Source: a virus
Lineage: Duplodnaviria > Caudoviricetes
Length of the DNA stretch: 64,000 bases
Virus record (IMG/VR): IMGVR_UViG_3300010429_001449
Direction: 5' to 3' (one strand)
In this document: piece by piece, positions 2,596 to 56,004 of the stretch
How positions within the stretch are numbered: the stretch's first letter is position 1
How the letters are laid out: the number at the start of each line of letters is the position of its first letter
The notes under the pieces: model-generated
What the model saw: only the letters and a program-made list of their open reading frames with translations
The model's database searches: none
Told to the model about the DNA's origin: nothing
Program-made: the position numbers and the translations under genes

Positions 2596-3131
2596 GACTT
2601 ATTAGGGTCTTTCGTATCAACTTTTTGGCCGCAGCGAGGGCAATAAGCGCGAGAGCCGATGGGGAGATCGCAAAGGGCGCAGCGTAGAAGGACGCCGTAA
2701 ATGTCTCGTCGGTCGGTAGCGCCGCGCATTAATTCTTCCAGCGCGTTACGTTTGGGAGAGTCAATGTCACGAATCAGATCGCGGAAGGCGCGGCGTCCCG
2801 CCTCAGCCAGGTCTTGACTTGATGCGTCAATCTTGTCCCGCAGCGTGATGCTGGCGCTTCCTTTGCCATCGCACACGCCACAAACGGCCACGAACCAGAG
2901 ACGGTAATCCGCTTCGGCATAAATATGCAGGCGCAGCGTTCCCTGCGCCAAGCATACCGGGCACGCAAAACCGCGACGGTACAACATCATGCGGATTGAG
3001 CGTTGCAGCAGATTGATTGGCGTTTGTTCTTCGAGAGAGTATCCCGTCTGGTCGATGATGTTAGGATTCGTCGTTTCCGTCATCGTCGCCATCTTCGTCT
3101 TCGTCCGACTCGCCTGCCTTGATATCATCAA
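2592..3131 (-). CDS. Hypothetical zinc-finger protein (true start probably near 3090)
   Basis: Four CxxC pairs. Confidence 0.7.
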   Translation of the reverse strand: MMISRQASRTKTKMATMTETTNPNIIDQTGYSLEEQTPINLLQRSIRMMLYRRGFACPVCLAQGTLRLHIYAEADYRLWFVAVCGVCDGKGSASITLRDKIDASSQDLAEAGRRAFRDLIRDIDSPKRNALEELMRGATDRRDIYGVLLRCALCDLPIGSRAYCPRCGQKVDTKDPNKS

Positions 3132-5250
3132 CCGGCGGCGATGACACTATCTTAGCCGTTACCTCTTTCACGCCGCCAGAGGTACGCGACCGCAATGCGC
3201 CTTCCAGATAATCACTCATCTGCAAGTCGCTTTTCTCGCAAGCGTCGGCCATCTCCTTAATACAACTGGTCAAGCCGGATTCCATCTGAAGAACCAGATG
3301 CACTTGATCCTTGTAGCAGAAGAAGATATGGCCTTTCGGCGCGGTACTACCGTACTCCGACAAGATGTTGCGGACAGCATAATCGAGGTTGTCACGAACA
3401 TGCTTGCTGGTCTCGTCGTCTTCTTCCGAACGATTCTTGGCCGCTTCCTGCTTCGCGGACTCGCGTTCTTCGAGAATCTCTTTGAATTTATCCTCGCGGG
3501 AGAAACCAAACCGGCGGGCCTCCTCGCTGAGTTTGAGACGCCTCTCGGTGCGCAAATCCAGAATGATGCGGCGCAGCTTAGTCGGGTTGCGCGTCCCGCG
3601 ATTCTCATTGCGGCGAACAAGGTTTTCGAGACGCACGACCTCGTCCATCCAGCCTTCCTTGACCACAATAGGAATCGTGGTCATGCCAACTTTTTTGCAA
3701 TTATGCACCAGACAACCGCCAACATTAAATATGTTCGTGGTTTCTACAGACATATTCCACACGTAATTACAGTCCTCGAATGCAACCACGTCGGACACGC
3801 GCAAGAGCAAACCATCAGCATCAAGAATTTTTCCGTAGCGCCTGTCTTGCTTTCTAGCAGGCGTGTAAGCCACTATATAAGAATCCCTGCGTTGTTCGGT
3901 GGTATCTTTTGAGCAATAAATGCTCGGCGCAAACTCCGCCGAGACGCAGAGAAGGAAAAGCTGATAAGCCAAGTCTTTAGACACAGTAGTAATACGAATC
4001 ATACCGTCAGGAGACGCATAACCATCACCAGATGCTACGCCATCGAGCAACGCTCGCGCCTTATCCTTTGGCAGCCCAATCCACATCGAAGGTAACGTCT
4101 TGCCGTAGGAGAAACGACCGAAAAGCGACTCGAACCAACTACCCAACGTAGGCGAAAACACCTTCACATCGTATCCGTCCCTGCTAGAAGTCTTCTTGTA
4201 AACAGAACATCTCAACCCAAACTTCGCCCTTACAATATCGCGCAGGCGAGCCAGAAAACCTCTTTCTATGTCTTTCTTTCCTATCGTGAAGCATATTCCT
4301 CGCACCCGTCCCCCGCTGTTCCGCTCGCGCACAGCCGAGCCTTCGGCTACGTAGAAACCGAACAACCAGAGTAAATCGGTATCTAATAGTTGCTTCGTCG
4401 AGAAAGGAGTCAGACACACTCTATTCGGCGCGACTTTGGCGGAGCGGTTGTAATGATAAGTACACAAATTTTTCGTCTTGACCGTAGAGGAACAACCCTC
4501 TACGCTGCATCGAGGCTGTTGTTTTACAGAACGGAAAGAACCGCTAAACGCTTTTTTGTAGCCCTGCTTCTGCTTATAGTGTCCGAAACACAAACCTCCC
4601 GCATGGACGCTATTTCTACAGGATGCGACGGAACACGTGTCGTCTTTAGGCGAGAAGCTGACCATGTGCGATGGAATAGTAATGGCGGTTGGAGAATATA
4701 AACACGGTCTTGGAACACGAATCCAACTCTTTCCCGGCAACAATTTGCACGCCTTAACTTCCTGTCCGTCCACCATATAAGGATGATCTTCCGTTGAAAC
4801 GAGCGGAATTTTCATGCCACACAATCTTACGGCGCAAAAACGACCCCGGTAAGGGCGCATCGACACATCTGTTACAGCGGCCCAAACACCGTGCGTTGAC
4901 ATTACAGCATCACCCACCACGACTTGACTGATAGCAAGTATACCCCTCTTCGTAACTACAGGGGTATCTCCGCAAAAACACGCCAACCAGCGGTGTTCCC
5001 CGCCAACAATACGGAACTTGCCCTCCGCTTCGGGGATTGGAACGACTTGGATTGGTTCGTCGAACTTCCAAGCATTTATGTCTTCCCGCAGCATATCCAA
5101 CTGTACGTCATCCATTTCGTTCGGATTGAGAGGGTCTGGCTCCAAGGAGTCGATAGGGACTTCGACGGCTCCGTCCCATGTCTTGGCCTTTTGGAGATAC
5201 GCAACCCACCACTTGTTAGCTTCCGGCGTTTCCTTCTTTTTTGCTGCCAT
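3061..5250 (-). CDS. ParB/Srx-like N-terminal domain protein interrupted by an intein
   Basis: LEPDPLNPN...PIQVV...IVGGEHRWLA|CKKVGMTTIPIVV...EN.RRNE.RG reconstitutes a ParB domain once the intein is removed. Confidence 0.88.
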   Translation of the reverse strand: MAAKKKETPEANKWWVAYLQKAKTWDGAVEVPIDSLEPDPLNPNEMDDVQLDMLREDINAWKFDEPIQVVPIPEAEGKFRIVGGEHRWLACFCGDTPVVTKRGILAISQVVVGDAVMSTHGVWAAVTDVSMRPYRGRFCAVRLCGMKIPLVSTEDHPYMVDGQEVKACKLLPGKSWIRVPRPCLYSPTAITIPSHMVSFSPKDDTCSVASCRNSVHAGGLCFGHYKQKQGYKKAFSGSFRSVKQQPRCSVEGCSSTVKTKNLCTYHYNRSAKVAPNRVCLTPFSTKQLLDTDLLWLFGFYVAEGSAVRERNSGGRVRGICFTIGKKDIERGFLARLRDIVRAKFGLRCSVYKKTSSRDGYDVKVFSPTLGSWFESLFGRFSYGKTLPSMWIGLPKDKARALLDGVASGDGYASPDGMIRITTVSKDLAYQLFLLCVSAEFAPSIYCSKDTTEQRRDSYIVAYTPARKQDRRYGKILDADGLLLRVSDVVAFEDCNYVWNMSVETTNIFNVGGCLVHNCKKVGMTTIPIVVKEGWMDEVVRLENLVRRNENRGTRNPTKLRRIILDLRTERRLKLSEEARRFGFSREDKFKEILEERESAKQEAAKNRSEEDDETSKHVRDNLDYAVRNILSEYGSTAPKGHIFFCYKDQVHLVLQMESGLTSCIKEMADACEKSDLQMSDYLEGALRSRTSGGVKEVTAKIVSSPPVDDIKAGESDEDEDGDDDGNDES
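3700..4980 (-). mobile_element. Intein (427 aa) with LAGLIDADG homing endonuclease and two Cys/His zinc-finger repeats
   Basis: Starts CFCGDTPV, block B TEDHP, LFGFYVAEGS and LLDGVASGDG motifs, ends LVHN before Cys+1. Confidence 0.92.
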
Positions 5251-6587: not shown

Positions 6588-8099
6588 TTAAAAAGGACAA
6601 TCGGCCTCGTCGAACTCCGTGTCCGCGTCGGCTATTGTCGCTGCTGGTTCCACAGAAAAGTCCGCTGACTGATCTCCGTCGTAAGAGACAAGAGTACCGA
6701 ACGGCGGACGATACGAACCAAACTTCAGCGCGGCATTACGATCCGTACGCTTCACAATCCACAGGAGGGGAAGCGGCGGCTCTTTCTTAGGGAACGTCCC
6801 CATCAAGTCTGTGAAGTAACAAATTCCCGCATACTGTCCGTAACCTTCCTTCGCCAATCGAGCAAAGGGCGGGCGGAAGTCCGTGCCGCCGCGCCCGCCC
6901 CACCTGTACGGAACTTCGTCGTGGGGGCTGAGAACTTGGTCATAGACTATGGCGGCATCACAGCCTATCAACCGAATCTTCGTGATGCCTTTGGACGTAA
7001 GAATACCTCTGGCCTCCGAGACGAACTCGCGTAGATGTTCGTCGGAAATGGAGCCGGACGTATCAATCATCACAATCAACTGCTTGCCTTCGTCGAAAAG
7101 ATCGGGCAGATAAACGCCGCGACTCCAAACGCCGTCGTGCAAAACAGGCATCAAACGACGGTCGGGAATGCCGAAGTCGTAGTCATCCCGGACGATTTCA
7201 GATACGAATGTTGTAAAGAATTGCTGCCACGGGATGACAGGATTCAACAAGTCCTTAATCAAAGACTCCATAGAGCCGGGACACCTTCCGTGTGCGGCGG
7301 CCAACTGAGCGGCGCGAACCAGTTTCTTTTGCCACGCCCTCTCCAACGACTCTTCAGTTTCCGGCGATCCATTCTTGTAGTCCGCGCCGGACGCCGCAGC
7401 GTCCGACTGGTCGTTCCCGCCTTCGCCAGGGGTCTGACTCTGCTCCCCGGCTTGATCATCACCGTCCTGCGAAGACCCGTCTGGAGCCTTTTGAGCCGCG
7501 TCTTGATCTTCGTCTTGATCCTCGTCACCGCTGTCCTTGCCAGCAGACGAATCGTCGGTATCGTCATCGTCAGGGCGATTGTCCTTCTCCGACGGCGTGC
7601 GGCCATGTTCTCTATCATTCTTCTTGAAATCGCCAGTACCGTCGCCGGGCGTTAAGTCTTGAAGCGGGCATCGTGGGTTATCCGGAAGGAGACTGAATAC
7701 GCGCTCGACGGTCATTCCGGCATACTGAGGATCACAAGGCCACGCGGCAGGAACAGAAAAACCAGCGCGGTCTTCCGACACCTTGTCCTCGGCCAACATC
7801 AGATTGACTACGTGATCACAAGCGACGTTCCACTTCTTGAGATCGCGCCCCATTCTACGGCGTCCGAAAACGTGCCTTAGCGCTACGTGCAGTACTTCGT
7901 GGGCCAAAAGGGTTTGACGCTCGGAATCGTTCAATTGCATCGCGTAGGCGGGGTTTACGGCCATTTCCTTAGCCGTTACGCCCGCCGTGGGAACCCGGTG
8001 GGTCAGACGGATGGGTAGGTCGGCCAAGAGATAGCCGTAAAAAGGCCGCGAGAGCAACAGACGTGTCCGCGCCCGCTTTATGGCCTCAGACAACCGCAT
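6588..8099 (-). CDS. Metallopeptidase-like (HExxH) plus vWA domain protein (DUF2201-like)
   Basis: LLAHEVLH zincin motif, acidic linker, IDTSGS MIDAS, GGGTDF-like and YFTD motifs. Confidence 0.88.
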   Translation of the reverse strand: MRLSEAIKRARTRLLLSRPFYGYLLADLPIRLTHRVPTAGVTAKEMAVNPAYAMQLNDSERQTLLAHEVLHVALRHVFGRRRMGRDLKKWNVACDHVVNLMLAEDKVSEDRAGFSVPAAWPCDPQYAGMTVERVFSLLPDNPRCPLQDLTPGDGTGDFKKNDREHGRTPSEKDNRPDDDDTDDSSAGKDSGDEDQDEDQDAAQKAPDGSSQDGDDQAGEQSQTPGEGGNDQSDAAASGADYKNGSPETEESLERAWQKKLVRAAQLAAAHGRCPGSMESLIKDLLNPVIPWQQFFTTFVSEIVRDDYDFGIPDRRLMPVLHDGVWSRGVYLPDLFDEGKQLIVMIDTSGSISDEHLREFVSEARGILTSKGITKIRLIGCDAAIVYDQVLSPHDEVPYRWGGRGGTDFRPPFARLAKEGYGQYAGICYFTDLMGTFPKKEPPLPLLWIVKRTDRNAALKFGSYRPPFGTLVSYDGDQSADFSVEPAATIADADTEFDEADCPF

Positions 8100-9402
8100 C
8101 CTCGTCCTCCTCAGCGTCAGTCAGGACTTTGTCGGTCGGCGAGAGGTACTGCTCGGAACGAACGAGAGCGCCGTACTTCTTCTCGAAGGCCAGATAATCG
8201 TCGTTGTCGTAAGCCAGCATCGCGCCCTGCGCACGAAAGAAGGGCATTACGAATATGTCGCAGATACCGCAGGCCGCTATCTCAGGGGAGCGATCCATAC
8301 GCTGCACAGCATACTTGCAGTAGTTGGCGAACGCGGAAATGATTTTTTCCCGCGCTGTCTGCCGACGTACCACGCTCGCCAACGCGCCTGCAAAAGCATA
8401 CGACACGTCGGCGCGTTTTGGCATTGGGATAGACATAAGGCCGTCCAAGATGACCGCTTCGGGATTGGGCATTTCGCTCATAACGTCGCAAAAGGCGGAA
8501 AACTGCGTTCCCGCGCCCGATCCGACAGAACCGTTTATGAGACTCAAAGCGGCATTAACGTCTCCATTCGTCAAGGAGAGCCAGTCTGACACCGTTTCCC
8601 AACTGCGCGGAGTACAAAAAGCTTTCTTGTGCTTCGCGGGATCAAACTGAAAAAGCAGTTCCGGTTTGAAGGTCAGGAACGATGCGATGCGAAAATCAAC
8701 ACCGATGCGAAGCGCCCACAGCTTCCAGTCTCTCAAAGACGGCATAAGTTCCAAGTGCGTGAAGCGGTTCGCCAAAGCACTGGACATAGGATTGACGATT
8801 GCGCGATCCGTCTCTCGGTTGCCGCTGGCGACGATATAACAGTCGTCGGGAAGATTGTATTCGCCGACATGACCATCCAATACCAATGAGTAAGCCGACG
8901 CCTGTACTGCATTCGGCGCGGCATTCAACTCGTCGAGATGAATGAGATATCCAGGCTTCGTCGGCAGAAAGGACGGATGCCACCATTCGGTCATCCGCGT
9001 AATCTCGTATAACGGCTCTCCAGCGGCATTCAACACAGGTTCGCCGCCTTTATACACAGCAAAGTTGCCCGTGTCATCCTTAACGTTCTTCCCGTCCGCG
9101 TCCAGAACGAACTCGCCGGGCAGCCGTACCAAGGGGGTCTTGCGTTCTTGCGCGACAGGAACGCCGCGAAGGTCAACAGGATTCAACAAGGACATGCGCA
9201 AGTCGATGAAGTTCAGCCGCTCCTCTTTTGCGATCTCGCGCATCAAAGCTGACTTCCCAATACCCGGCGGACCCCACAGATGTGTGGCCCGTCCGCCGCG
9301 CCGCAACTTGCGCGAACGAACGGCAATCTGCATAGAATACTTGACTTCTGCAAACGAAAGCGGCGCTAACTGCACGTCACCGGTACTTGCTGCGGCGGGC
9401 AT
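8086..9402 (-). CDS. AAA+ ATPase (MoxR-like), partner of the vWA protein
   Basis: GPPGIGKS Walker A, LIHLDE Walker B, ASGN, ALANRF. Confidence 0.9.
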   Translation of the reverse strand: MPAAASTGDVQLAPLSFAEVKYSMQIAVRSRKLRRGGRATHLWGPPGIGKSALMREIAKEERLNFIDLRMSLLNPVDLRGVPVAQERKTPLVRLPGEFVLDADGKNVKDDTGNFAVYKGGEPVLNAAGEPLYEITRMTEWWHPSFLPTKPGYLIHLDELNAAPNAVQASAYSLVLDGHVGEYNLPDDCYIVASGNRETDRAIVNPMSSALANRFTHLELMPSLRDWKLWALRIGVDFRIASFLTFKPELLFQFDPAKHKKAFCTPRSWETVSDWLSLTNGDVNAALSLINGSVGSGAGTQFSAFCDVMSEMPNPEAVILDGLMSIPMPKRADVSYAFAGALASVVRRQTAREKIISAFANYCKYAVQRMDRSPEIAACGICDIFVMPFFRAQGAMLAYDNDDYLAFEKKYGALVRSEQYLSPTDKVLTDAEEDEDAVV

Positions 9403-11918: not shown

Positions 11919-11954
11919 AAAAAGAATAGGGCCGAAAGATTCTTCCGGCCCTAT
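11919..11954 (-). terminator. Intrinsic terminator closing the Y-RNA operon
   Basis: ATAGGGCCG...CGGCCCTAT hairpin followed by TCTTTTT. Confidence 0.8.
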
Positions 11955-11968
11955 CTTGAGTAAGTGTC

Positions 11969-12037
11969 GGGTTGACGAGGGACGGTCAAGAGTGGTTCAT
12001 GGTTATCATTCATGTACTCCTGACCAGCATTCAACCC
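11969..12037 (-). ncRNA. Y-RNA-like unit Y1 (minimal, no tRNA module)
   Basis: GGGTTGAATGC...TACATG...CTCGTCAACCC. Confidence 0.8.
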
Positions 12038-12044
12038 AAAGAGA

Positions 12045-12169
12045 TTGGTTGACGAGGGGCGCACGAGAGATTAGCAGGATTCGCACCTGCAATTCCCCGA
12101 AGGGAAACTTGCTTGTTAGGCAAGCGCGTTTGCTTTTTCGCCATGTACTCCCGTACTGCATTCAACCAA
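12045..12169 (-). ncRNA. Y-RNA-like unit Y2 (D, anticodon AAC, long variable and T arms; Ro stem replaces the acceptor stem)
   Basis: GGTTGAATGC...TACATG; CTTGC-CTAACAA-GCAAG; GCAGG-TGCGAAT-CCTGC; CTCGTCAACC. Confidence 0.82.
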
Positions 12170-12179
12170 AAAGAGGCGA

Positions 12180-12382
12180 GAGGCCGACGAGGGATGCGGA
12201 GTCTAGTTTTCGCGCTCTGCCGCTGAGCTACCCGCCCGAAGAACCCCGCCAGAGGCCCCTACCAGTCGCACACTTGCGGCTGATGTTCGGCGTCCGTTGG
12301 GGAGGAATTGGTGGGCGGGGCAGGAGTCGAACCTGCGACCTCGGCTTCCAATTAGCATGTAAACCCCACTGCATTCGACCTC
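12180..12382 (-). ncRNA. Y-RNA-like unit Y3 (YrlA-type T-acceptor-D order, internal CCA, 71-nt linker)
   Basis: GGTCGAATGC; GCAGG-TTCGACT-CCTGC; CCCGCCC-A-CCA; GGGCGGG-TA-GCTC..GAGC; CTCGTCGGCC. Confidence 0.88.
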
Positions 12383-12404
12383 AAAAATTCGCGGAAAGAA
12401 AGCA

Positions 12405-12557
12405 CAGTCGACGAGGAAATGAGAGACTTGGTTTTTGCTACGCTCCCATAGTGGCGACCGCCGGATTTCCCCGACAGGTCGCCGTTGGTGGGAGCGGCTC
12501 TTTCGAGCATCTACAGATTTACGGTCTGTTGCATGTAATCCCTCTGGCATTCGACTG
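12405..12557 (-). ncRNA. Y-RNA-like unit Y4 (anticodon GTA arm, mini T arm, acceptor with internal CCA; Ro stem at the D arm)
   Basis: AGTCGAATGC; ACAGA-CCGTAAA-TCTGT; CGCTCCC-A-CCA...GGGAGCG; CTCGTCGACT. Confidence 0.8.
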
Positions 12558-12596
12558 AGTTCTCTCTTGCGGAGCCGTAGCCCCGCGAAAAGGATT

Positions 12597-12720
12597 TGGC
12601 TGACGAAGGTGAAGAAACTTTACCGCTTTCGCGGATGGCGGGAATCGCACCCGCAACGTTCTGTTTACGAGACAGATGCTCTGCTATTGAGCTACATGTA
12701 GTTCCTTCGGCATTCAGCCA
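12597..12720 (-). ncRNA. Y-RNA-like unit Y5 (D, anticodon CGT and T arms; Ro stem replaces the acceptor stem)
   Basis: GGCTGAATGC; TAGCTC-AATAGCA-GAGC; TCTGT-CTCGTAA-ACAGA; GCGGG-TGCGATT-CCCGC; TTCGTCAGCC. Confidence 0.85.
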
Positions 12721-12733
12721 AAAAGAGGAAAGA

Positions 12734-12871
12734 GACCGACGAGGGTTTTGCAAGTCGTATGTGTTTGACCGCCGCTCTACTACCTGAGCTACTCCCGGCT
12801 TGCGCCAGAGGGCAGGACTTGCACCTGCGACCAGCGGTTGCGATAACATGTAGACCTACAAGCATTCGGTC
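12734..12871 (-). ncRNA. Y-RNA-like unit Y6 (classical YrlA layout, acceptor stem closed by a GCAA loop)
   Basis: GACCGAATGC; GCAGG-TGCAAGT-CCTGC; CTCTGGC-GCAA-GCCGGGAG; GCTC..GAGC; CTCGTCGGTC. Confidence 0.88.
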
Positions 12872-12888
12872 CCCTTTGTTACAGAAGA

Positions 12889-13008
12889 AGGCTGACGAGG
12901 TATTTGAAGAGACAACTTCAAGCGCCGAAGCGCTTGTTGTAGGGGTCGAACCTACTATCGAGGCTTGCGCCTTGATGGTATCCATGTAGTCCCTTCGGCA
13001 TTCAGCCT
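12889..13008 (-). ncRNA. Y-RNA-like unit Y7 (T arm flanked by GCAA and TTCG hairpins)
   Basis: GGCTGAATGC...TACATG; GTAGG-TTCGACC-CCTAC; CTCGTCAGCC. Confidence 0.82.
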
Positions 13009-13017
13009 AAAGAGATC

Positions 13018-13142
13018 GGGCTGACGAGAAATGACCGCGACGTTCAGAGTATTAGTCTGTTGCCTAGCTATTAGGCTACGTTTCCTTTGGTGGAAATGAT
13101 GGGAGTTGCACCCATAATGTAGTCGCAATCGGCATTCAGCCC
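13018..13142 (-). ncRNA. Y-RNA-like unit Y8 (complete permuted tRNA: T, acceptor-CCA, D, anticodon AAT; Ro stem at the variable loop)
   Basis: GGGCTGAATGC; ATGGG-TGCAACT-CCCAT; CATTTCC-A-CCA-AA-GGAAACG; GCCT..AGGC; CAGA-CTAATAC-TCTG; CTCGTCAGCCC. Confidence 0.85.
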
Positions 13143-13152
13143 AAAGTTGTTA

Positions 13153-13292
13153 GCGGCTGGCCGGGATTCAGGGGACGAGCAATTCAGTTCTCGCCACGGG
13201 GTTTTGTACGTTCATTCATTAAACCCGCTGCTCCCTGTCCCAACGCGCTTCTAAGCTTTCGCTCGCCGCTACTTGCTCCACGCTGCAGCCGC
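13153..13292 (-). ncRNA. Putative structured RNA heading the Y-RNA operon
   Basis: Terminal GCGGCTG/CAGCCGC stem; no ORF; ends resemble the element at 52307-52410. Confidence 0.5.
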
Positions 13293-13304
13293 ATTCAATC
13301 TAGC

Positions 13305-13317
13305 GATGTCAAAGAAC
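13305..13317 (-). promoter_or_regulatory. boxA-like antitermination element
   Basis: GTTCTTTGACATC just downstream of the promoter; similar sites precede the two other large ncRNA operons. Confidence 0.6.
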
Positions 13318-13348
13318 AGCACGGCGTCGCTTGCTAGGCGATACCCTT

Positions 13349-13376
13349 AGTATAACAGAACCAAGGGGAATGTCAA
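13349..13376 (-). promoter_or_regulatory. Promoter of the Y-RNA operon
   Basis: TTGACA-N16-TATACT. Confidence 0.85.
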
Positions 13377-13484
13377 GGCTTTTTCACAAAAAAATCCCGA
13401 AGTTCGTCGACTCTGAGCAAAATATTATGCTTAAAAGTGCGCGAAACTTCACACAGATTTAAGCATAATTTTTTGCCCGGAGTC

Positions 13485-13521
13485 AAAAGCGGAAGGGGCG
13501 GGGGCTGCCTGCCCCTTCCGC
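13485..13521 (-). terminator. Intrinsic terminator after the Ro60 gene
   Basis: GCGGAAGGGGC/GCCCCTTCCGC stem then TTTT. Confidence 0.7.
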
Positions 13522-13531
13522 GAGCGTCCGA

Positions 13532-15304
13532 TTACTCGGACGCTTCTTCTGCTTCATCGGGCGCTGCGTCGCTTGCGCTCTTGCAAGCGGCGGCCAGATC
13601 GATGGCTTCGATCTCGCGCACCCACACGGATACGTCCTTCTCCGGCTTTGCCGTCGCCGTCTTCGTCTCCGTGCCCGGCTTTACGCCGTTGTTCAAGAAG
13701 TCGATGATGACCGACCATACAGCGTTGGACCATCCGCCGATGTTCAGAATATCGGCGTCGCCTTCCGGAGCCTGCGTACTGTCGTTGGCCGCAAGGTCCA
13801 AACAGACCATCCGTGCGCCTGGACAACGCGACCGCAGCGCATTGAACTGCGCCATGAGTTCCGTGCCGCCATTACGCACGGTACGTCCCCTAGAATCAAC
13901 CCACGACTCGTTGTCAGAAATGATGACAACGCGATTGATCTTCTGTTGCGCACGGTTGACCCGCGCCAGCGGAGCCGAAATGCACGTTCCGCCCCCACCG
14001 GCGTGTCGGATCGCATTAGTAAGCGTCAGAATCGAGTCCCTACGCTCCAACTTGACAGGAAGCACGTCGTTGGCGAACGGCATTACGGTCGATCCCATGT
14101 TCCTCTTGTAGAGGATGGCTGCCAGCAGCGAGGAAATGTCCGCGCACGTAGCCTTCGTCGTGGCCGAGCCACGGTAGCCGGTTACTGGCGCGTCCATCGA
14201 TCCCGACAGGTCTGGCGCAATCAGCAGAGCGCCGTCGATGCCGATCATGTTGCTCGTTGCGAGGTCCATCGCGTCGTGCAGTGCGTCCCGAATAGCTTCC
14301 GGAACTTCGGTGTGGACGAAATCGTAAGCCGTCTTGATCTCGTACGGGAAGGGCTTGACCCTTTCCTGAATCTCCTCCTTGTCCCGGAGCTTCTCCGCGA
14401 TGGCCTTGACAGCCTTCTCATTGCTGAACACGCCTTGACGCTTGTACGTATTCAGATTCTTGAGGGTCTGTCTCCAGCCGCCGCGCAGCGCAAGCTGCCG
14501 CCAATGCTCTTCCTTCAGAGGAAGCGACGACAGGAACTCCCAACGCACTCCCTTCGGAAGCGGGGCCGACTCACCCGCCAGCAATGCGGCCTTGAACGTC
14601 TCGTAGTCGCGGATGCACTTCGGCAGCTTGTCCCAGTCGGGAGCAAGCTCCGGGCGATTCGCGCAGAGCGCCTTGGCCTCACCGAGGGTGCGTGGGCACT
14701 TGCCGATCAAGTAGGCGAAGATAGCCCGTTCCTCTGCCGTGCGCGGCGTCGGGTGAACCATCTTGATTACGTCCGACAGGCTCACCGTGCCTTTGGCCGA
14801 TCCACCGACAGAGTCGCCGAAAAGCTGATCACCCGTGCGGCTCCGCAGCCAGTCACGAATGGCCTTCTTCGGAACCGCGCCAAGCGACTTCCGACCGACC
14901 GCACCGCTACGCATAATTTGCGTGAAGCCGAGCAGCATCTTGCCGTTCGTCACGACGCGACCGAAAGCGCGATTGAACCACGAACGACCGTCTGCGTCCC
15001 GCGAAGTCAGATGGGCAAGCAGGAGCGCCGGAGCGTCCTTCATTCCACCGTTTTCACGAGCGTACACAGCCGTCTTGGCAACGTATTCGGGCGTGTTGAC
15101 CGCAGCCAGGGCCAGCATCTTGGCCAGTTCGTTTTCTCCGCTCTGATAGAACGTTCCGCCCTCCGGAAGCGTTCCAGTCATGGCGAACTGGGCGAGCGCG
15201 TGCTTGTCCGTGAACTTGTAAGCCACTCCCCCTGCTTCGTTGACCGTGTTGGTCGGAGGAGCCGTACGACCTCTCTGCGTCTTAAAAAGCTTCTTCGCTG
15301 GCAT
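13532..15304 (-). CDS. rsr: Ro60/TROVE domain RNA-binding protein (Rsr orthologue)
   Basis: NEAGG.AY...HALAQ...TG...TFY; A.YAR..GGMKD.PALL; RSG.VGRKSLG; D.IKMVHP; vWA DLSGSM, GGGT, IISDNESW. Confidence 0.95.
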   Translation of the reverse strand: MPAKKLFKTQRGRTAPPTNTVNEAGGVAYKFTDKHALAQFAMTGTLPEGGTFYQSGENELAKMLALAAVNTPEYVAKTAVYARENGGMKDAPALLLAHLTSRDADGRSWFNRAFGRVVTNGKMLLGFTQIMRSGAVGRKSLGAVPKKAIRDWLRSRTGDQLFGDSVGGSAKGTVSLSDVIKMVHPTPRTAEERAIFAYLIGKCPRTLGEAKALCANRPELAPDWDKLPKCIRDYETFKAALLAGESAPLPKGVRWEFLSSLPLKEEHWRQLALRGGWRQTLKNLNTYKRQGVFSNEKAVKAIAEKLRDKEEIQERVKPFPYEIKTAYDFVHTEVPEAIRDALHDAMDLATSNMIGIDGALLIAPDLSGSMDAPVTGYRGSATTKATCADISSLLAAILYKRNMGSTVMPFANDVLPVKLERRDSILTLTNAIRHAGGGGTCISAPLARVNRAQQKINRVVIISDNESWVDSRGRTVRNGGTELMAQFNALRSRCPGARMVCLDLAANDSTQAPEGDADILNIGGWSNAVWSVIIDFLNNGVKPGTETKTATAKPEKDVSVWVREIEAIDLAAACKSASDAAPDEAEEASE

Positions 15305-15382
15305 TTCATGCTCCTTTCTAAGGGAAAGCCTTAGCGAATTAGGAGCCGCCGCGTTGTGCGGCGTTCCATAAGCAACACCCTT

Positions 15383-15410
15383 AGTATAACGGAGCGTATA
15401 GAAATGTCAA
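15383..15410 (-). promoter_or_regulatory. Promoter of the Ro60 gene
   Basis: TTGACA-N16-TATACT. Confidence 0.85.
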
Positions 15411-24527: not shown

Positions 24528-25208
24528 TCAAACACGATCCGGGTGTTGTTCCCGAAACGTCTTGTCCCACGCTGCGGGATCGGAGAAGTAGTCAGAAACC
24601 TCGGCAGGCACGAGGCCGCTGTTATGGAGGCTGTCAATGTTCGCTAAGGAAAGAAGCTCGACGCCGTGCTCTTTGAGCGCCTTCTCGCCGCCCTGTTGAC
24701 GATCAAAGACGACCATACAAAGCTTCACCTCAGCGCCAGCTTCGCGGAGAGCTTCAATGAACTCCAGCTTGCTGCCCGCGTCTGTTATCAGGTCTTCGAC
24801 CAGAACCACACGGCGGTCTTCGACCGACGCGCCTTCGACCTTGCCCTTCGTACCGTATTCTTTCTGCGCCTTGCGGACGTAGGCCGAGGAGAGACCCATC
24901 GAAGCTGCGAGACGTGTGGCGAACGGTATTCCTGCGCTCTCGCCGCCCGCGATGACGGGGAAAGGAGGCTTCTCCAGCAGGATGTATCCGCGCCTCGGCT
25001 CGTAGTCAAACTCAGCAAGGGCATAATGAAAGAGACCCGTGACCAGACTCATAACAGCGGGATCGCTGATGAGTTTCCGGCAATCGAAGTAGACCGGACT
25101 CAGCAAGCCGCTCTTGAGCGTGAACGGTTTGATAGTGCTGATACGCAGGGCGTCGCAGCGTACCAATGCGTCTACAACAACATGTCCGACGGGAGAGTTC
25201 TTGTTCAT
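24528..25208 (-). CDS. pyrE: Orotate phosphoribosyltransferase
   Basis: FTLKSG..SPVYFDCR, YVRK..KEYG, LVEDLITDAGS PRPP-binding loop, VFDR. Confidence 0.93.
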   Translation of the reverse strand: MNKNSPVGHVVVDALVRCDALRISTIKPFTLKSGLLSPVYFDCRKLISDPAVMSLVTGLFHYALAEFDYEPRRGYILLEKPPFPVIAGGESAGIPFATRLAASMGLSSAYVRKAQKEYGTKGKVEGASVEDRRVVLVEDLITDAGSKLEFIEALREAGAEVKLCMVVFDRQQGGEKALKEHGVELLSLANIDSLHNSGLVPAEVSDYFSDPAAWDKTFREQHPDRV

Positions 25209-25280
25209 CCTACGGCTTCCTTTCATTTCACAACTTAGGTTCTGTCTACTGCCGAGCACTCCACAACTTAGGTGTGATAC

Positions 25281-26012
25281 TCATGGCTTTAGTTTCTCAA
25301 TCCATTCCTTCGCCGCCGCCGTAGGGTCTTCTGCGCCGTAAATCGCGGAGCCGATGATGGGATACCAGTCGAACGGAGGAACCTTGCCGATGTAGATTTT
25401 GGCTTCGTCGACCTCGGCCTGCTGCCTTCCGAGTCCGGGCGTATAAACGTTGATCGGCTCTCCCTCAAATCCCGGACACTCGGTAGAGTTGTAGGCGTCC
25501 CACAAAACAGTCGCATAATGCAGTTTAGTCGCGGGCAAAACGAAGCTGCGGACGCCGCACTTAAGCGCCTCTGTGAACACACGCTTCGGCATGTCATCGG
25601 AGAGGAAACCGCCCTCGGACACTAAGAATTCCGGGTGCGTCATCACTGCGCCTACGATGAGATCGTGCACACAGTTCTGTGTCAGCCTCCGCCACGCACG
25701 ACACCAATGCCGGAGAGTATCGGGGCCTGCGAAAGGAAAAATGATCGTTCCTCTTGCGCCCGACCGGGCGCACATACTCAGCAAAGGTTCAGCCATCTGC
25801 GGAATATCAGTGCCCGCCTTTTGATGGTCGTAGATCACAGGCTTATCGGAAAGTGTGTTAATCTCCGCGACCGTTTTGCGCAAGGACGCTTCGAGGGCTA
25901 GGAGAGACCCGATCTTAAACCCGGCCACGCCGTCTAGCTGTCCCGTAGAACGAGCGAGAACTGGGAGTTTCTCGAACGGCACATCACACGCGATCACGAT
26001 TCCTTTGAACAT
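25281..26012 (-). CDS. pyrF: Orotidine-5'-phosphate decarboxylase (divergent, DHQKAGTDIP type)
   Basis: IACD, GFKIG, YDHQKAGTDIP, TPGLG.Q, IIGSAIY; adjacent to pyrE. Confidence 0.88.
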   Translation of the reverse strand: MFKGIVIACDVPFEKLPVLARSTGQLDGVAGFKIGSLLALEASLRKTVAEINTLSDKPVIYDHQKAGTDIPQMAEPLLSMCARSGARGTIIFPFAGPDTLRHWCRAWRRLTQNCVHDLIVGAVMTHPEFLVSEGGFLSDDMPKRVFTEALKCGVRSFVLPATKLHYATVLWDAYNSTECPGFEGEPINVYTPGLGRQQAEVDEAKIYIGKVPPFDWYPIIGSAIYGAEDPTAAAKEWIEKLKP

Positions 26013-26156
26013 ACACCTGTCTCCTTTGTCGCTGCGGGCAACAGTACGTAGTTTCCGCGCACCAGAAAGTTCTATCAAATTGGGCGGGAGAAAATGGGCG
26101 GTTGGTGGGTAGTTGAAACACGCCTCAGCATCAGCATAACGCTGATCTCCAAGAAG

Positions 26157-26242
26157 TGGTGGGCGAGGGGAGATTTGAACTCCCACGCGGTTTCCCGCAC
26201 CAGTGCCTGAGACTGGCTCGTCTGCCTTTCCGACACTCGCCC
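26157..26242 (-). tRNA. tRNA-Leu(CAG)
   Basis: GGGCGAG/CTCGCCC acceptor, loop CT-CAG-GC, long variable arm, CCA. Confidence 0.92.
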
Positions 26243-35039: not shown

Positions 35040-35416
35040 TGGTGGACGCGGGGGGCATTGCAACCCCCGTCCAGAAATGGTTCCTTCTGCGCTTGCTACA
35101 TGTTTAGCTGGCCTATTGTGTCTCGCGCTAAGAACCCCGGCCAGCGGGGTTTCCTTCGCGCCATCTCTAAAGCTTTAGCCCTTACGCCCAAGAGAACTGA
35201 CGTAAGACCGATCCCGCTAGTTGACGCCTGCAAACAGACGCGGGCTTCCGCAAGCAGACGTGTTGCCTCTTGTTAGGCAGCAAGCCCAACCGCTTCGCGG
35301 CTGGGGAATTGCACGATGTTATCGGCACTTGTGTTTTGTCAGGCGTTTTACGAGATTCCTGGCGATCTCGACATGCAACACAGACATCTTCCATCCTGTC
35401 GATTCTTGTCGCGCCC
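35040..35416 (-). ncRNA. ssrA: tmRNA
   Basis: 5' GGGCGCG..TCGAC and 3' GAC-T arm-CGCGTCC-A-CCA with G3:U70; tag ORF 35326-35273 encodes ADNIVQFPSREAVGLAA. Confidence 0.93.
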
Positions 35417-37884: not shown

Positions 37885-37961
37885 TGGTCGGGACAGTACG
37901 GAGTCGAACCGTTAATTTCCGAGCCTCGCGGTCGGCGTACTGCCGTTGTACTATCGTCCCG
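37885..37961 (-). ncRNA. tRNA-like RNA with Pro-type acceptor and non-canonical anticodon arm
   Basis: CGGGACG/TGTCCCG-A-CCA, GTAC D stem, TTCGACT T loop; anticodon arm CCGACC-GCGA-GGCTCGG. Confidence 0.7.
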
Positions 37962-37970
37962 AAAGAGAAC

Positions 37971-38045
37971 TGAGTCGACGAGGATCGCAAGAGACGTTTG
38001 GTAGTCCACAACGGGGCATGTAGTCCCTCGCTGGCATTCGACTCA
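37971..38045 (-). ncRNA. Y-RNA-like unit Y10 (minimal)
   Basis: GAGTCGAATGC...TACATG...CTCGTCGACTC. Confidence 0.8.
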
Positions 38046-38050
38046 AAAAC

Positions 38051-38225
38051 TGGTCGGACGAGGAAGGATTCTACCTTCATCTTCCGGGCGCAGAGCTATG
38101 GGTACGCTCGGCTGTTCTAGTTGAACTACTACTGAGACACCTCCGAGAGTCGGTATTGAGACGCCTGCCCAAAGCAGGCATCTCAACCATTTACTCTACC
38201 GGGCTACGTCTCATTGGGTCGTCCG
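38051..38225 (-). ncRNA. tRNA-like RNA (175 nt) with a roughly 90-nt hairpin insert before the D arm
   Basis: Perfect CGGACGA/TCGTCCG acceptor plus ACCA; GTTC/GAAC D stem; GAAGG/CCTTC T stem. Confidence 0.62.
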
Positions 38226-41092: not shown

Positions 41093-42658
41093 TCAGGACG
41101 GAAAACCTCTGCTGACCCAATCGATAGCCTTCTTGGTGCGGGCCAACCGTTCTGCTTCTTGTCTAGCCAGGGCGAGAGCGTCGTCCCGCGAACGAATCGT
41201 TCCTTCTAGTTGCGCGTCCTGTACAGCCGTCAAGACCTCGCTGAATATTGGACTGGGCGAGAAGCCCATCGCAATAAGGTCGTGTCCGGTCAAGAGCGGT
41301 TTCGGCTTCACCTGTTCGGGAGGAAGCTCTTCTTTCTTGCGCCGGAGCCACTCGTAATCCGAAAGATCGCCGTTGCTTCCCACAGCATCGGCGCGATGAA
41401 GGGCCAGCAACCGGTCGAACAGAGGATGCGCCATAATGCGCTTGAGCTTGGACAACTTCATGTCCTTGGCGTACGTCGGCACTAAGTGATGCTCAACAAG
41501 CCACTGGATAGCCTCAACATCAGCGTTGCTGAGCCTCATCCTCTTGCCAATCTCTCCTATCATCTCGGCCCCGACATCCTCATGTCTGTGGAACGTGATC
41601 CGCTGTTTGGCGTCGTTGAAGGCTTGTGTCTTAGGCTTGCCCACGTCGTGAAGGAGAGTAGCCCACGTCAAGACCAGATCGCCTTTAGGTTCCAGCTTAT
41701 CCAGCATCAAAAGCGTGTGTTCCCATACCGTACCTTCGGGGTGGAAGTCTTCCGGCTGCTCAATACCCTTCGTGGCGGCCATCTCGGGAAGCACTTTATC
41801 CAAAAGGTTCAAACCGTCGAGCAGCCGGAGTGCTTGCCCCGGATGTTGCGTTTGAAGCATCTTCCCTAACTCGTCGGTTATACGCTCTTGGCTGATGCCC
41901 GTGATCTTGTCCGCGTTGCTCTTTATGGCGTCGGCAGTCTTCTTGTCCATCTCGAAGCCGAAACGCGCCGCAAAACGGACGGCGCGGAGCATACGGAGAT
42001 AATCCTCTGCAAATCGGTCATTAGGGTCGCCTACGGCGCGTAAGACGCCGTTTTCCAGGTCTTGTTGGCCTCCAACGTAGTCGATGACCTTCTTCTCTTT
42101 GGGGTCGAAAAACAAGGCGTTTATCGTGAAGTCGCGCCGCTCAGCGTCTTTTTCAGCGGTCGAGAAGCTCACTTCGTCCGGATGCCGTCCGTCCGCATAT
42201 CCGCTTTCAGTCCGGAAGGTTGCGATTTCAAACTCGTCATCTCCATCTCGAACCCTTGACACGCCGAAGGCTTCCCCCGCAAACTTGGATTCGGGCCATA
42301 TCTTGGAAACTTCGTCCGGCGTCGCGGAAGTTGCTATGTCTATGTCGTGACAGTCACGACCGAGAAGCATGTCTCGCACACAGCCGCCCGCAAAATAGGC
42401 TTCATGCCCGGCGTCCTTCAAACGCTCAACAATGTTCGTGGCGGCTTTGCCTTGCTGGGAATCGAGAACCGCCGCCCAAGCATCTTCTTTGATCTTCTTC
42501 TCGGGCTTCTTTTCTTCTTCTCCTTCAGCGGCTCCGGCGGCAGAAGTAAACTGCCCGGTTTCAGGGTCTTTGCATCTGCTGCCTGGTTTACCGGGAGCGA
42601 TTTGACACGGCTTGTCGTCGGCTTTCCTGAATGCTGTTTGTATCCAATCATAGGGCAT
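41093..42658 (-). CDS. cca: CCA-adding tRNA nucleotidyltransferase (class II) with HD domain and N-terminal extension
   Basis: AGGCVRD, DIDIAT, DAERRDFTINAL, RFAEDYLRMLRAVRF, HPEG.V..H, LLHDVGKP. Confidence 0.93.
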   Translation of the reverse strand: MPYDWIQTAFRKADDKPCQIAPGKPGSRCKDPETGQFTSAAGAAEGEEEKKPEKKIKEDAWAAVLDSQQGKAATNIVERLKDAGHEAYFAGGCVRDMLLGRDCHDIDIATSATPDEVSKIWPESKFAGEAFGVSRVRDGDDEFEIATFRTESGYADGRHPDEVSFSTAEKDAERRDFTINALFFDPKEKKVIDYVGGQQDLENGVLRAVGDPNDRFAEDYLRMLRAVRFAARFGFEMDKKTADAIKSNADKITGISQERITDELGKMLQTQHPGQALRLLDGLNLLDKVLPEMAATKGIEQPEDFHPEGTVWEHTLLMLDKLEPKGDLVLTWATLLHDVGKPKTQAFNDAKQRITFHRHEDVGAEMIGEIGKRMRLSNADVEAIQWLVEHHLVPTYAKDMKLSKLKRIMAHPLFDRLLALHRADAVGSNGDLSDYEWLRRKKEELPPEQVKPKPLLTGHDLIAMGFSPSPIFSEVLTAVQDAQLEGTIRSRDDALALARQEAERLARTKKAIDWVSRGFPS

Positions 42659-42673
42659 ACACAAACATCTCCA

Positions 42674-48663: not shown

Positions 48664-48670
48664 GCCGCAC

Positions 48671-55874: not shown

Positions 55875-55881
55875 TATCCTC

Positions 55882-55910
55882 AGTATATCAGGTCTTATTA
55901 TGCGTGTCAA
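55882..55910 (-). promoter_or_regulatory. tnpB promoter (TTGACA-N17-TATACT)
   Basis: The -10 box is 7 nt from the ATG, suggesting a leaderless mRNA. Confidence 0.7.
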
Positions 55911-56004
55911 GCAAAATTGCATAATATTTTTCCTAACTCGCTCTCATCCCATGACTAAAGTCGTGGGCTTTCCCGCTCGTTTCGTAGGCGAGTTGTTTTC
56001 CTGA

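What the first reader, a model, noticed from the sequence alone, without database searches (positions are those of the whole stretch)
11919..15410. Phage Ro60 locus with a dedicated operon of eight different Y-like RNAs
Seen: the TROVE/vWA gene has its own promoter and terminator. It is followed by a second promoter, a boxA-like site, eight tandem units and a terminator. Every unit has 5' GNYGAATGC, a short helix, a TACAT(G) box, a variable interior and a complementary 3' (C/T)TCGTCRNC. Established: bacterial Ro60 (Rsr) genes are flanked by Y RNA genes whose Ro-binding stem carries a GNCGAAN(0-1)G-type motif, normally in only one or a few copies. Inference: this phage encodes a combinatorial Ro60 RNP set, one protein ring with at least ten interchangeable RNA adaptors. 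These could act as decoys or as tethers for nucleases or repair enzymes during host tRNA-targeting defence.
Basis: partly seen in the sequence, partly recalled or inferred. Interest (0 to 1): 0.95.

Follow-up and report, generated by a model that had tools for sequence, protein, structure and literature searches.

The report
Phage Ro60 with ten Y RNAs
A giant uncultured phage encodes the ring-shaped RNA-binding protein Ro60 and ten different small partner RNAs (eight in their own operon) that share one conserved "handle" but mostly carry different tRNA look-alikes, a much larger and more varied Y RNA set than I found described for any virus or bacterium.

Summary
On the minus strand lie a consensus promoter, a 590-aa Ro60 gene and terminator hairpins. 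A second promoter, eight tandem units (13142-11969) and a strong terminator follow. Two more units sit among tRNA genes at 38044-37972 and 37517-37436. The 269-kb phage record holds exactly ten.

All ten share a handle: helix P1, an internal loop with invariant GAAUGC / YUNGUC, helix P2, and a UACAU box. This matches the Ro60-binding module of Rfam YrlA. P1 and P2 covary strongly (score 0.775 vs 0.19 shuffled; 0 of 500 shuffles as high).

The protein folds as Ro60 (top 13 PDB matches, E to 1e-22).

The modules differ. Two are classical YrlA. Two are unpermuted tRNA bodies with anticodon arms. One is a whole tRNA permuted at the variable loop. Two have the handle in the D-arm position. Three are simple hairpins.

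Arrays of 5-10 units recur beside Ro60 in related large uncultured phages, and all score below Rfam's threshold. This scan has reported similar arrays (4, 5 and 9 units) next to Ro60-like genes on other phage DNA.

Ro60 binding, discrete transcripts and function remain untested. The decoy/tether idea is inference. Verdict: a new variant of a known kind.

The parts
15383..15410 (-). Promoter-like site upstream of Ro60 (TTGACA-16-TATACT)
13532..15304 (-). Ro60 (Rsr) orthologue, 590 aa: HEAT-repeat ring plus vWA domain with an intact MIDAS motif (D365, S367, S369, T440, D464)
   Evidence: Pfam vWA_Ro60 5.7e-14. Full-length alignment to Rsr 2nvo and RO60 9nen. AF2 model pLDDT 81.6; top 13 PDB fold matches are all Ro60. 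Invariant columns.
13418..13521 (-). Two hairpins after the Ro60 stop codon, each followed by a short T run: probable terminators
   Evidence: read from the sequence; not called by the consensus scan
13349..13376 (-). Second promoter-like site, driving the RNA array
13143..13340 (-). Leader. Holds the boxA-like TGTTCTTTGACA (13318-13307) and a GAAUGC...CUCGUC pair with no UACAU box and no P1 pairing: a degenerate unit or a plain leader, unresolved
13018..13142 (-). U1: handle plus a complete tRNA-Ile(AAU)-like body, circularly permuted. The handle enters at the variable loop. The acceptor 3' strand is followed by ACCA.
   Evidence: ARAGORN calls a tRNA across the junction of the doubled interior; fold; Rfam tRNA 23.7 bits
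12889..13008 (-). U2: handle plus a GCAA hairpin, a canonical T arm (UUCGACC loop) and a UUCG-closed acceptor-like stem. No D arm; the handle sits in the D-arm position (my reading).
   Evidence: CM R1 41.8 bits
12733..12872 (-). U3: classical YrlA layout (T arm, closed acceptor-like stem, D arm; handle at the anticodon stem)
   Evidence: Rfam YrlA 35 bits, E 1.8e-5, full-length alignment
12597..12720 (-). U4: handle continues the acceptor stem of an unpermuted tRNA body (D arm, anticodon arm with loop CUCGUAA, T arm) plus an extra GAAA hairpin
   Evidence: Rfam tRNA 50 bits, model positions 5-66; fold
12405..12557 (-). U5: anticodon-like arm (loop CCGUAAA), a GAAA hairpin at the T position, and a 7-bp acceptor stem with ACCA and an inserted hairpin. 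The handle sits in the D-arm position (my reading).
12181..12381 (-). U6: classical YrlA layout with a perfect 7-bp acceptor stem, an encoded ACCA and a 76-nt insert
   Evidence: Rfam YrlA 52.4 bits, E 1.6e-10
12046..12168 (-). U7: handle continues the acceptor stem of an unpermuted class-II-like tRNA body (anticodon loop CUAACAA, long variable arm)
   Evidence: Rfam tRNA 39.5 bits; ARAGORN tRNA-Val(aac); CM R1 36.1 bits
11969..12037 (-). U8: handle plus a short hairpin (YrlB-like, no tRNA features)
   Evidence: CM R1 55.5 bits, E 2.7e-14
11925..11955 (-). Intrinsic terminator of the array (14-bp stem, T run)
37972..38044 (-). U9: handle plus a short module, directly upstream of a tRNA gene
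   Evidence: CM R1 40.2 bits
37436..37517 (-). U10: handle plus a short hairpin, between two tRNA-Pro genes
   Evidence: CM R1 46.5 bits
41093..42664 (-). CCA-adding enzyme with HD domain: a possible processing or repair partner for the ACCA-bearing units (association inferred only)

Best explanation
The locus encodes a phage Ro60 ribonucleoprotein system with an expanded partner set.

Shown: the protein is a true Ro60 ring with a vWA domain. Downstream lies a separately promoted, terminator-bounded array of eight small RNA genes, and two more lie in tRNA clusters. All ten share a covarying two-helix handle whose invariant nucleotides (GAAUGC, UACAU, YUNGUC) correspond to the Ro60-binding module of YrlA. 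The interiors are unrelated in sequence. Seven are tRNA mimics in which the handle replaces or enters a different part of the cloverleaf: the acceptor end, the anticodon stem, the variable loop, or the D-arm position. Three are plain hairpins.

Inferred: the primary transcript is cut in the pyrimidine-rich spacers, as in tRNA operons. Each mature RNA docks on Ro60 through the handle. The variable module then recruits or sequesters a different tRNA-recognising or RNA-decay factor. By analogy with known Ro60 systems, one candidate is host PNPase. For the three units with a 7-bp acceptor stem plus ACCA, candidates are RNase P and the phage's own CCA-adding enzyme. Together these RNPs would remodel or protect the RNA/tRNA pool during infection, possibly against host defences.
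For: Protein: Pfam vWA_Ro60; full-length matches to Rsr and RO60; predicted fold matches only Ro60 structures at the top.

RNA, within this phage: ten units and no more in the record. All fold unconstrained into P1-loop-P2-module. P1 pairs in 50 of 50 cells.

RNA, across relatives: 129 of 155 P1 cells pair vs 69 +/- 6 for shuffled partners. P2 scores 6.62 of 7 vs 4.88 for swapped partners. The tool count on 15 units from 10 contigs gives 93% paired and covariation 0.775 vs 0.188 +/- 0.035, with 0 of 500 shuffles as high.

Link to YrlA: Rfam YrlA aligns full-length to U6, U3 and U4 at E 1.6e-10 to 0.12.

Modules: tRNA-model hits inside U4, U7 and U1; a permuted tRNA in U1. The units are not recent duplicates.

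Linkage to Ro60: the same handle occurs in arrays on the Ro60 strand in relatives. Six of ten further unit-bearing contigs encode Ro60 elsewhere, whereas Ro60 is in only 360 of 50,697 catalogued phage records.

Expression: RNA-library contigs identical to the window cover the array. This shows presence only.

Precedent: phiLo Ro60 binds two phage Yrl RNAs and host PNPase (PMC12135203). M. smegmatis YrlA is cut by RNase P and receives CCA.
Against: No direct evidence of Ro60 binding, of discrete mature RNAs, or of any partner protein. Every YrlA hit is below Rfam's gathering score (52.4 vs 69 bits). Pfam's TROVE model does not match the protein. The record (77% complete) has no RtcB, PNPase or RNase II/R, so any effector must come from the host. 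Two near-complete phage genomes carry units without a Ro60 of their own, so the handle may also serve another protein or a host Rsr. The D-arm-position reading of U2 and U5 is my interpretation, not a model hit. Metatranscriptome contigs may derive from contaminating DNA.
Confidence: 0.72

Rival explanations
1. The handle RNAs are a separate phage small-RNA family whose conserved handle binds some other protein, or acts as a processing or stability cassette for tRNA-like RNAs. Their proximity to Ro60 would then reflect only shared placement in stable-RNA gene clusters.
For: Units also sit among tRNA genes 22-25 kb from Ro60 and are interleaved with tRNAs in relatives. Two near-complete phages have units but no Ro60. 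Mx1 has the closest named Ro60 but no detectable unit within 4 kb.
Against: The handle's invariant blocks match the YrlA consensus, and three units align full-length to the YrlA model. Ro60 is rare in phages, yet it is present in most unit-bearing contigs. In most loci the arrays directly abut Ro60 on the same strand.
Confidence: 0.12
2. Some units are precursors of working tRNAs or split tRNAs, above all U1 (a whole permuted tRNA with encoded ACCA), U5 and U6. The handle would be a processing stem removed or nicked during maturation, as with permuted tRNA genes of some algae and archaea.
For: ARAGORN reconstitutes a full tRNA from U1. Three units have 7-bp acceptor stems followed by ACCA, like the phage's own tRNA genes. 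The phage encodes a CCA-adding enzyme. M. smegmatis YrlA is an RNase P substrate.
Against: The D loops lack G18G19, and several T loops read UGCRA rather than UUCRA. The anticodons AAU and AAC are not, to my knowledge, normal bacterial decoding anticodons. No bacterial splicing and circularising pathway is reported. Three units have no tRNA features, yet all ten keep the same handle.
Confidence: 0.08
3. The units are decaying tRNA-gene debris or a selfish repeat with no function of its own.
For: The leader at 13340-13143 looks like a degenerate unit. The modules are highly diverged.
Against: There are compensatory changes in 10 of 13 handle pairs across phages whose Ro60 proteins are only 34-47% identical. 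The strand is strictly the same throughout. The array has its own promoter and terminator. The invariant handle blocks are conserved across GC contents from 27% to 63%.
Confidence: 0.03

Closest known systems
Bacterial and mycobacteriophage YrlA / YrlB Y RNAs bound by Rsr (Rfam RF02553; Chen et al. 2014, PMC4201824; YrlA structure, bioRxiv 10.1101/312249)
   Same: A terminal helix, a CGAAUGC-type motif, a second helix, a CUAC-type box and a CUUGUCG 3' strand. Encoded next to Ro60 on the same strand. The module is a tRNA mimic (U3 and U6 have the classical T arm, closed acceptor and D arm order). Short partners without tRNA features resemble YrlB.
   Different: There are ten paralogues rather than one YrlA plus one or a few others. 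The handle attaches at four different cloverleaf positions. Complete anticodon arms are present in U1, U4 and U7 (with an anticodon-like arm in U5), whereas published YrlA lacks an anticodon loop. One unit holds a whole permuted tRNA with encoded ACCA. All units score below Rfam's gathering threshold.
Thermus phage phiLo Ro60 with Yrl1 and Yrl2 (PMC12135203; PDB 9KOP, 9L5Y)
   Same: A phage-encoded Ro60 with phage-encoded Y-like RNAs beside the gene. No phage PNPase; host PNPase is recruited in vitro.
   Different: Two RNAs there, ten here. The proteins are only about 23-26% identical. No tRNA-mimic variety is reported for phiLo.
Coliphage Bas63 gp130, Ro60-like by structure, which counters the Ppl defence (PMC11482910); and earlier notes of this scan on Felix O1-type and freshwater phages with 4-9 handle RNAs
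   Same: A ring-shaped Ro60-type phage protein next to tRNA-like genes suspected to be Y RNAs. This is an experimental precedent for a counter-defence role.
   Different: gp130 was not found by tblastn with this protein, so it belongs to a more distant family. I did not compare its RNAs with this handle.
Human and vertebrate Ro60 with Y1, Y3, Y4 and Y5 RNAs
   Same: One Ro60 ring, several Y RNAs that share a Ro-binding stem, and variable loops that recruit different proteins.
   Different: Four RNAs, separate Pol III genes, and no tRNA-like modules.

Membership tests
Ro60 / Rsr protein | HEAT-repeat ring (TROVE module) followed by a vWA domain | tested here: met
   AF2 model (pLDDT 81.6, pTM 0.82) matches Ro60 chains 9nfa, 1yvp, 2nvo and 9kop over about 550 columns, with E from 1e-22 to 1e-15. 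Sequence alignment to Rsr covers residues 20-536.
Ro60 / Rsr protein | Match to the Pfam TROVE model (PF05731) | tested here: not met
   No match at E <= 0.001. Only vWA_Ro60 (PF25045) matches, at 5.7e-14. The ring is divergent in sequence but not in fold.
Ro60 / Rsr protein | MIDAS motif in the vWA domain | tested here: met
   D365, S367, S369, T440 and D464 are invariant in 16 phage homologues.
YrlA-type Y RNA (RF02553) | Score at or above Rfam's gathering threshold (69 bits) | tested here: not met
   The best is U6 at 52.4 bits, then U3 at 35 and U4 at 21.7. Relatives score 36-64 bits.
YrlA-type Y RNA (RF02553) | GNCGAAN0-1G motif near the 5' end, in a stem closed by the 5' and 3' ends | tested here: met
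   An exact match in U5, U6, U9 and U10. The other six have GNUGAAUG or ANCGAAUG, with the variant bases paired and compensated in P1.
YrlA-type Y RNA (RF02553) | Encoded within about 4 kb of Ro60 on the same strand | tested here: met
   Eight units start 390 nt downstream of the Ro60 stop codon. U9 and U10 are on the same strand but 22-24.5 kb away.
YrlA-type Y RNA (RF02553) | tRNA-like domain in the order T arm, closed acceptor-like stem, D arm, joined to the handle at the anticodon stem | tested here: inconclusive
   Met by U3 and U6. U1, U2, U4, U5 and U7 are tRNA-like with a different topology. U8-U10 have no tRNA features.
YrlA-type Y RNA (RF02553) | Bound by Ro60 in vivo or in vitro | not testable with these tools
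   Needs co-IP or EMSA.
Conserved structured RNA (general) | Compensatory base changes supporting the proposed helices | tested here: met
   Ten of 13 pairs show double-sided changes. Covariation is 0.775 vs 0.188 for shuffles (0 of 500 as high) and at most 0.146 for slid registers. P1 anchored by sequence alone gives the same result.

The most novel reading that the evidence does not exclude
The phage uses one Ro60 ring with a panel of at least ten handle-tagged RNAs, each presenting a different face of a tRNA. These include full anticodon loops (CGU, AAC and AAU, plus a GUA-type loop) and CCA-ended acceptor stems. They would act as Ro60-tethered decoys or baits that capture host tRNA-targeting defence nucleases or tRNA-processing enzymes, or hand damaged tRNAs to an exonuclease. 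The handle would then be a natural, transplantable docking module found across a large clade of jumbo phages.
Probability: 0.2. Interest if true: 0.9.

Novelty: new variant of a known kind. Interest (0 to 1): 0.72.

Why it matters
What the variable part of a Y RNA does is the central open question of Ro60 biology. Only PNPase tethering is established in bacteria. This locus offers a natural experiment: one protein, one handle, and ten different modules, seven of which mimic tRNA in systematically different ways. Dozens of related phage arrays are available for comparison. The work also shows that Rfam's YrlA model misses this family, so many small RNA genes in large-phage genomes may be unannotated or miscalled as tRNAs or small ORFs. 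If the modules recruit or trap tRNA-directed host factors, this would be a new type of RNA-based counter-defence.

Tried and rejected
1. Transcript ends from metatranscriptome contigs. RNA-library contigs tile 11946-13340, and run X3 covers little else of the 9 kb. However, the contig ends differ between the two runs, contigs cannot give ends or strand, and DNA carry-over is possible. I use the result only to show presence.

2. Covariance model R1 on long units. It recovers five units at full length (36-55 bits) but only the 5' handles of units with long inserts, and it does worse with filters off. I counted long units with my own scripts and with Rfam instead.

3. MAFFT alignment A1 of units with different lengths put P2' out of register. 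I replaced it with A2, built from short units only.

4. The motif pair alone (GAATGC or YTCGTCRNC) is not enriched in the window. Only the combination with paired flanks is specific.

5. The 15-base IMG/VR pattern scan was mostly chance: 28 of 119 loci held a complete unit.

6. The candidate at 8861-8919 (13.4 bits) lies inside an AAA-ATPase ORF and lacks UACAU, so I rejected it.

7. 'U0' (13305-13150) has no UACAU box, P1 does not pair, there is no CM hit, and the fold z-score is -0.9. I did not count it as a unit.

8. The boxA-like site is not above chance.

9. Searches for RtcB, RNase PH/PNPase and RNB in the record found nothing.

10. A terminase Pfam search found nothing. The phage identity rests on the IMG/VR classification and on relatives.

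11. Two review papers (PMC10870794, PMC6047535) are not held.


Full report
WHAT IS THERE

The window is part of a 268.8-kb IMG/VR virus record, rich in tRNA genes and carrying a tmRNA gene. All features of the finding lie on the minus strand.

A 590-aa ORF (15304-13532) matches Pfam vWA_Ro60. It aligns over its full length to D. radiodurans Rsr (2nvo) and to RO60 chain 9nen, and over its N-terminal half to the phage phiLo protein. Pfam's TROVE model does not reach significance. I therefore folded the protein from an alignment of 16 phage homologues that are 36-47% identical to it. The model (pLDDT 81.6, pTM 0.82) has Ro60 structures as its 13 best PDB matches, with E from 1e-22 to 1e-15 and TM up to 0.77. 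The MIDAS residues are invariant. It is a true Ro60.

TRANSCRIPTION SIGNALS

Three promoter-like sites with 11 of 12 consensus matches lie at 15410-15383, 13376-13349 and 11913-11886. They belong to a motif, TTGACATT..GTTATACT, that occurs 20 times in the window, always on the minus strand, against 0.69 expected.

The array ends in a 14-bp terminator at 11955-11925. Two hairpins with short T runs follow the Ro60 stop codon; I read these, and the scan did not call them. The boxA-like word at 13318-13307 is present. A similar word follows the promoter of the tRNA/tmRNA operon at 35617-35606. The word is not above chance.

THE UNITS

Requiring GAATG, TCGTC and complementary flanks gives exactly ten units in the whole record: eight in tandem (13142-11969) and two among tRNA genes (38044-37972 and 37517-37436).

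Unconstrained folding gives all ten the same architecture:
- a 7-bp terminal helix, P1;
- an asymmetric internal loop (5' AUGCN, and about 7 nt on the 3' side ending in YCG);
- an 8-10-bp helix, P2;
- a UACAU box;
- a variable module.

COVARIATION

P1 is anchored by invariant sequence on both sides, so it can be tested without any alignment choices. All 50 of 50 cells pair in the ten units. In relatives, 129 of 155 cells pair, against 69 +/- 6 for shuffled partners and 47-60 for slid registers.

P2 scores 6.62 of 7 against 4.88 +/- 0.12 when partners are swapped under the same register freedom, and 38 of 40 strands are distinct.

On a MAFFT alignment of 15 short units from 10 contigs, the pair counter gives 93.3% of cells paired and double-sided changes in 10 of 13 pairs. 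The covariation score is 0.775 against 0.188 +/- 0.035 (0 of 500 shuffles as high) and at most 0.146 for slid registers.

RELATION TO Y RNAs

Rfam's YrlA model aligns full-length to U6 (52.4 bits, E 1.6e-10), U3 (35 bits) and U4 (21.7 bits). All are below the 69-bit gathering score.

The handle consensus of my model R1 (gGgcCGAAUGCU..GAcUACAU ... CUuGUCGgcCc) corresponds block for block to the YrlA consensus (cggCgaAUGCuuggGgaaCUAc ... AcUuGucGccg). That region includes the GNCGAAN0-1G motif that Chen et al. consider likely to be involved in Rsr recognition (PMC4201824).

MODULES

The ten interiors are unrelated by BLAST. Only the 5' handles of U2 and U4 are alike.

- U3 and U6 have the classical YrlA order. 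U6 has a perfect 7-bp acceptor stem followed by ACCA and a 76-nt insert.
- U4 and U7 contain unpermuted tRNA bodies (Rfam tRNA 50 and 39.5 bits) with full anticodon arms. Here the handle prolongs the acceptor stem.
- U1 contains a complete tRNA in permuted order. When the handle is removed in silico and the interior joined to itself, ARAGORN calls tRNA-Ile(AAU) across the junction. The acceptor 3' strand runs into ACCA. The handle enters at the variable loop.
- U2 and U5 keep an acceptor stem and an arm in the anticodon-arm position, and lack a D arm. U2 also keeps a canonical T arm, while U5 has a GAAA hairpin in its place and an ACCA after its acceptor strand. The handle takes the D-arm position. 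This last point is my reading, not a model hit.
- U8-U10 carry only short hairpins.

Published YrlA lacks an anticodon loop and joins its handle at the anticodon stem. The acceptor-end, variable-loop and D-arm layouts did not appear in the papers I found. Earlier first-reader notes of this scan had proposed the four graft positions and the permuted tRNA in U1. I tested these here.

RELATIVES

Seventeen IMG/VR contigs encode a homologue 34-45% identical to this Ro60. Most carry the same handle on the Ro60 strand.

A pattern scan plus screening added more contigs. R1 finds 76 units at E <= 1e-3 in 47 loci. Merged with Rfam and script hits, there are 98 units in 35 non-redundant loci. Their median length is 74.5 nt, and 28 have a T-arm-like hairpin.

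Arrays are common: L139 has 10, L018 has 8, L096 and L100 have 7, and L011 has 6. Units are often interleaved with genuine tRNAs. All YrlA hits in relatives are below Rfam's threshold, which explains why they are not annotated.

Of ten unit-bearing contigs with no Ro60 in the fetched DNA, six encode one elsewhere in the record. Two near-complete genomes do not. Ro60 occurs in only 360 of 50,697 catalogued phage records, so the linkage is strong but not absolute.

The unpermuted acceptor-grafted type (U4, U7) was not seen in the relatives examined.

EXPRESSION

Contigs from two activated-sludge metatranscriptome runs, identical to the window, cover the array. This shows only that the sequence is present in RNA libraries.

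MECHANISM

By analogy with D. radiodurans and Salmonella Rsr-Y RNA-PNPase, and with phiLo Ro60-Yrl-host PNPase, the handle should dock each RNA on Ro60 and the module should recruit or occupy another factor.

The record has no RtcB, PNPase or RNase II/R. It does encode a full CCA-adding enzyme with an HD domain. Three units have acceptor stems ending in ACCA, like the phage's own tRNA genes. M. smegmatis YrlA is cut by RNase P and receives CCA. Opening of these loops is therefore a concrete, testable step.

A counter-defence role has one experimental precedent in a distant Ro60-like phage protein, Bas63 gp130 against Ppl. It is untested here.

NOVELTY

Phage Ro60 with Y RNAs is known: 22 phages in Chen 2014, and phiLo in 2025. 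I found no description of several features in the literature I could search:
- ten diverged paralogues, eight of them in a dedicated operon;
- the handle placed at four cloverleaf positions;
- complete anticodon arms and a whole permuted tRNA inside a Y RNA;
- arrays across a clade of large uncultured phages.

This scan has already reported comparable arrays (four, five and nine units) beside Ro60-like genes on other phage DNA. No word-level look-alike of this protein or of U9 was on record outside this genome.

I rate it a new variant of a known kind.

Noticed in passing
L086 (IMGVR_UViG_3300009545_000021, 69.9 kb, 100% complete, terminal repeats) and L049 (57.6 kb, 92% complete): These near-complete phage genomes carry handle units but no Ro60 homologue. 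L086 has three units, two of them YrlA-like at 38-50 bits. The units may use a host Rsr or another protein.
   Followed up: partly
L004 (Myxococcus phage Mx1, OR576727.2 52915-62513): Mx1 has the closest named Ro60 (38.8% identity) but no detectable handle unit or YrlA hit within 4 kb. There are two weak tRNA-Sec-like hits at 978-1062 and 1518-1603.
   Followed up: partly
window 1-64000, minus strand: A conserved promoter motif, TTGACATT-N12-GTTATACT, occurs about 20 times, all on the minus strand (0.69 expected). It probably marks one temporal class of phage promoters recognised by host sigma-70.
   Followed up: partly
window 41093-42664 (-): A full-length bacterial-type CCA-adding enzyme (PolyA_pol head, RNA-binding domain, HD domain) encoded by the phage.
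   Followed up: partly
window 35040-35416 (-) and 17-19 tRNA genes across the window: A phage-encoded tmRNA (138 bits) and a large tRNA set, all on the minus strand. ARAGORN's tRNA-Val(aac) at 12065-12150 is really the module of unit U7, not a free tRNA.
   Followed up: partly
window 37885-37961 and 38051-38225 (-): ARAGORN calls tRNA-Ser(cga) at 37885-37961. Another first-reader note says this and a neighbouring stretch are tRNA mimics without a normal anticodon. I did not examine this.
   Followed up: no
window 54777-55922 (-): A TnpB / IS605 OrfB-type protein (HTH_OrfB_IS605, OrfB_IS605 and Cas12f1-like TNB domains) inside the phage genome.
   Followed up: no
window 6588-9402 (-): An adjacent gene pair: a DUF2201 metallopeptidase/vWA-like protein and an AAA (MoxR-like) ATPase.
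   Followed up: no
window 46954-49489 (-): A protein-kinase-like gene followed by a PP2C phosphatase gene. At 42674-44545 there is a weak PI3/PI4-kinase-like hit.
   Followed up: no
window 49576-50772, 24528-26186 (-): Nucleotide and NAD salvage genes: NAPRTase, a phosphoribosyltransferase, and an OMP-decarboxylase-like protein.
   Followed up: no
window 3061-5250 (-): A 729-aa protein with LAGLIDADG and ParB_N-like domains, possibly a homing endonuclease fusion.
   Followed up: no
window 12558-12596 (-): The spacer between U4 and U5 is unusually long (39 nt) and holds its own small GC-rich hairpin. The other spacers are 8-23 nt and pyrimidine-rich (..CUCUUU).
   Followed up: no
units U1, U3, U4, U7: Their T loops read UGCRA (G at the position of pseudouridine 55) rather than UUCRA. 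The D loops of U1 and U4 read AAUAGC without a GG pair. This deviant elbow is shared by several modules.
   Followed up: no
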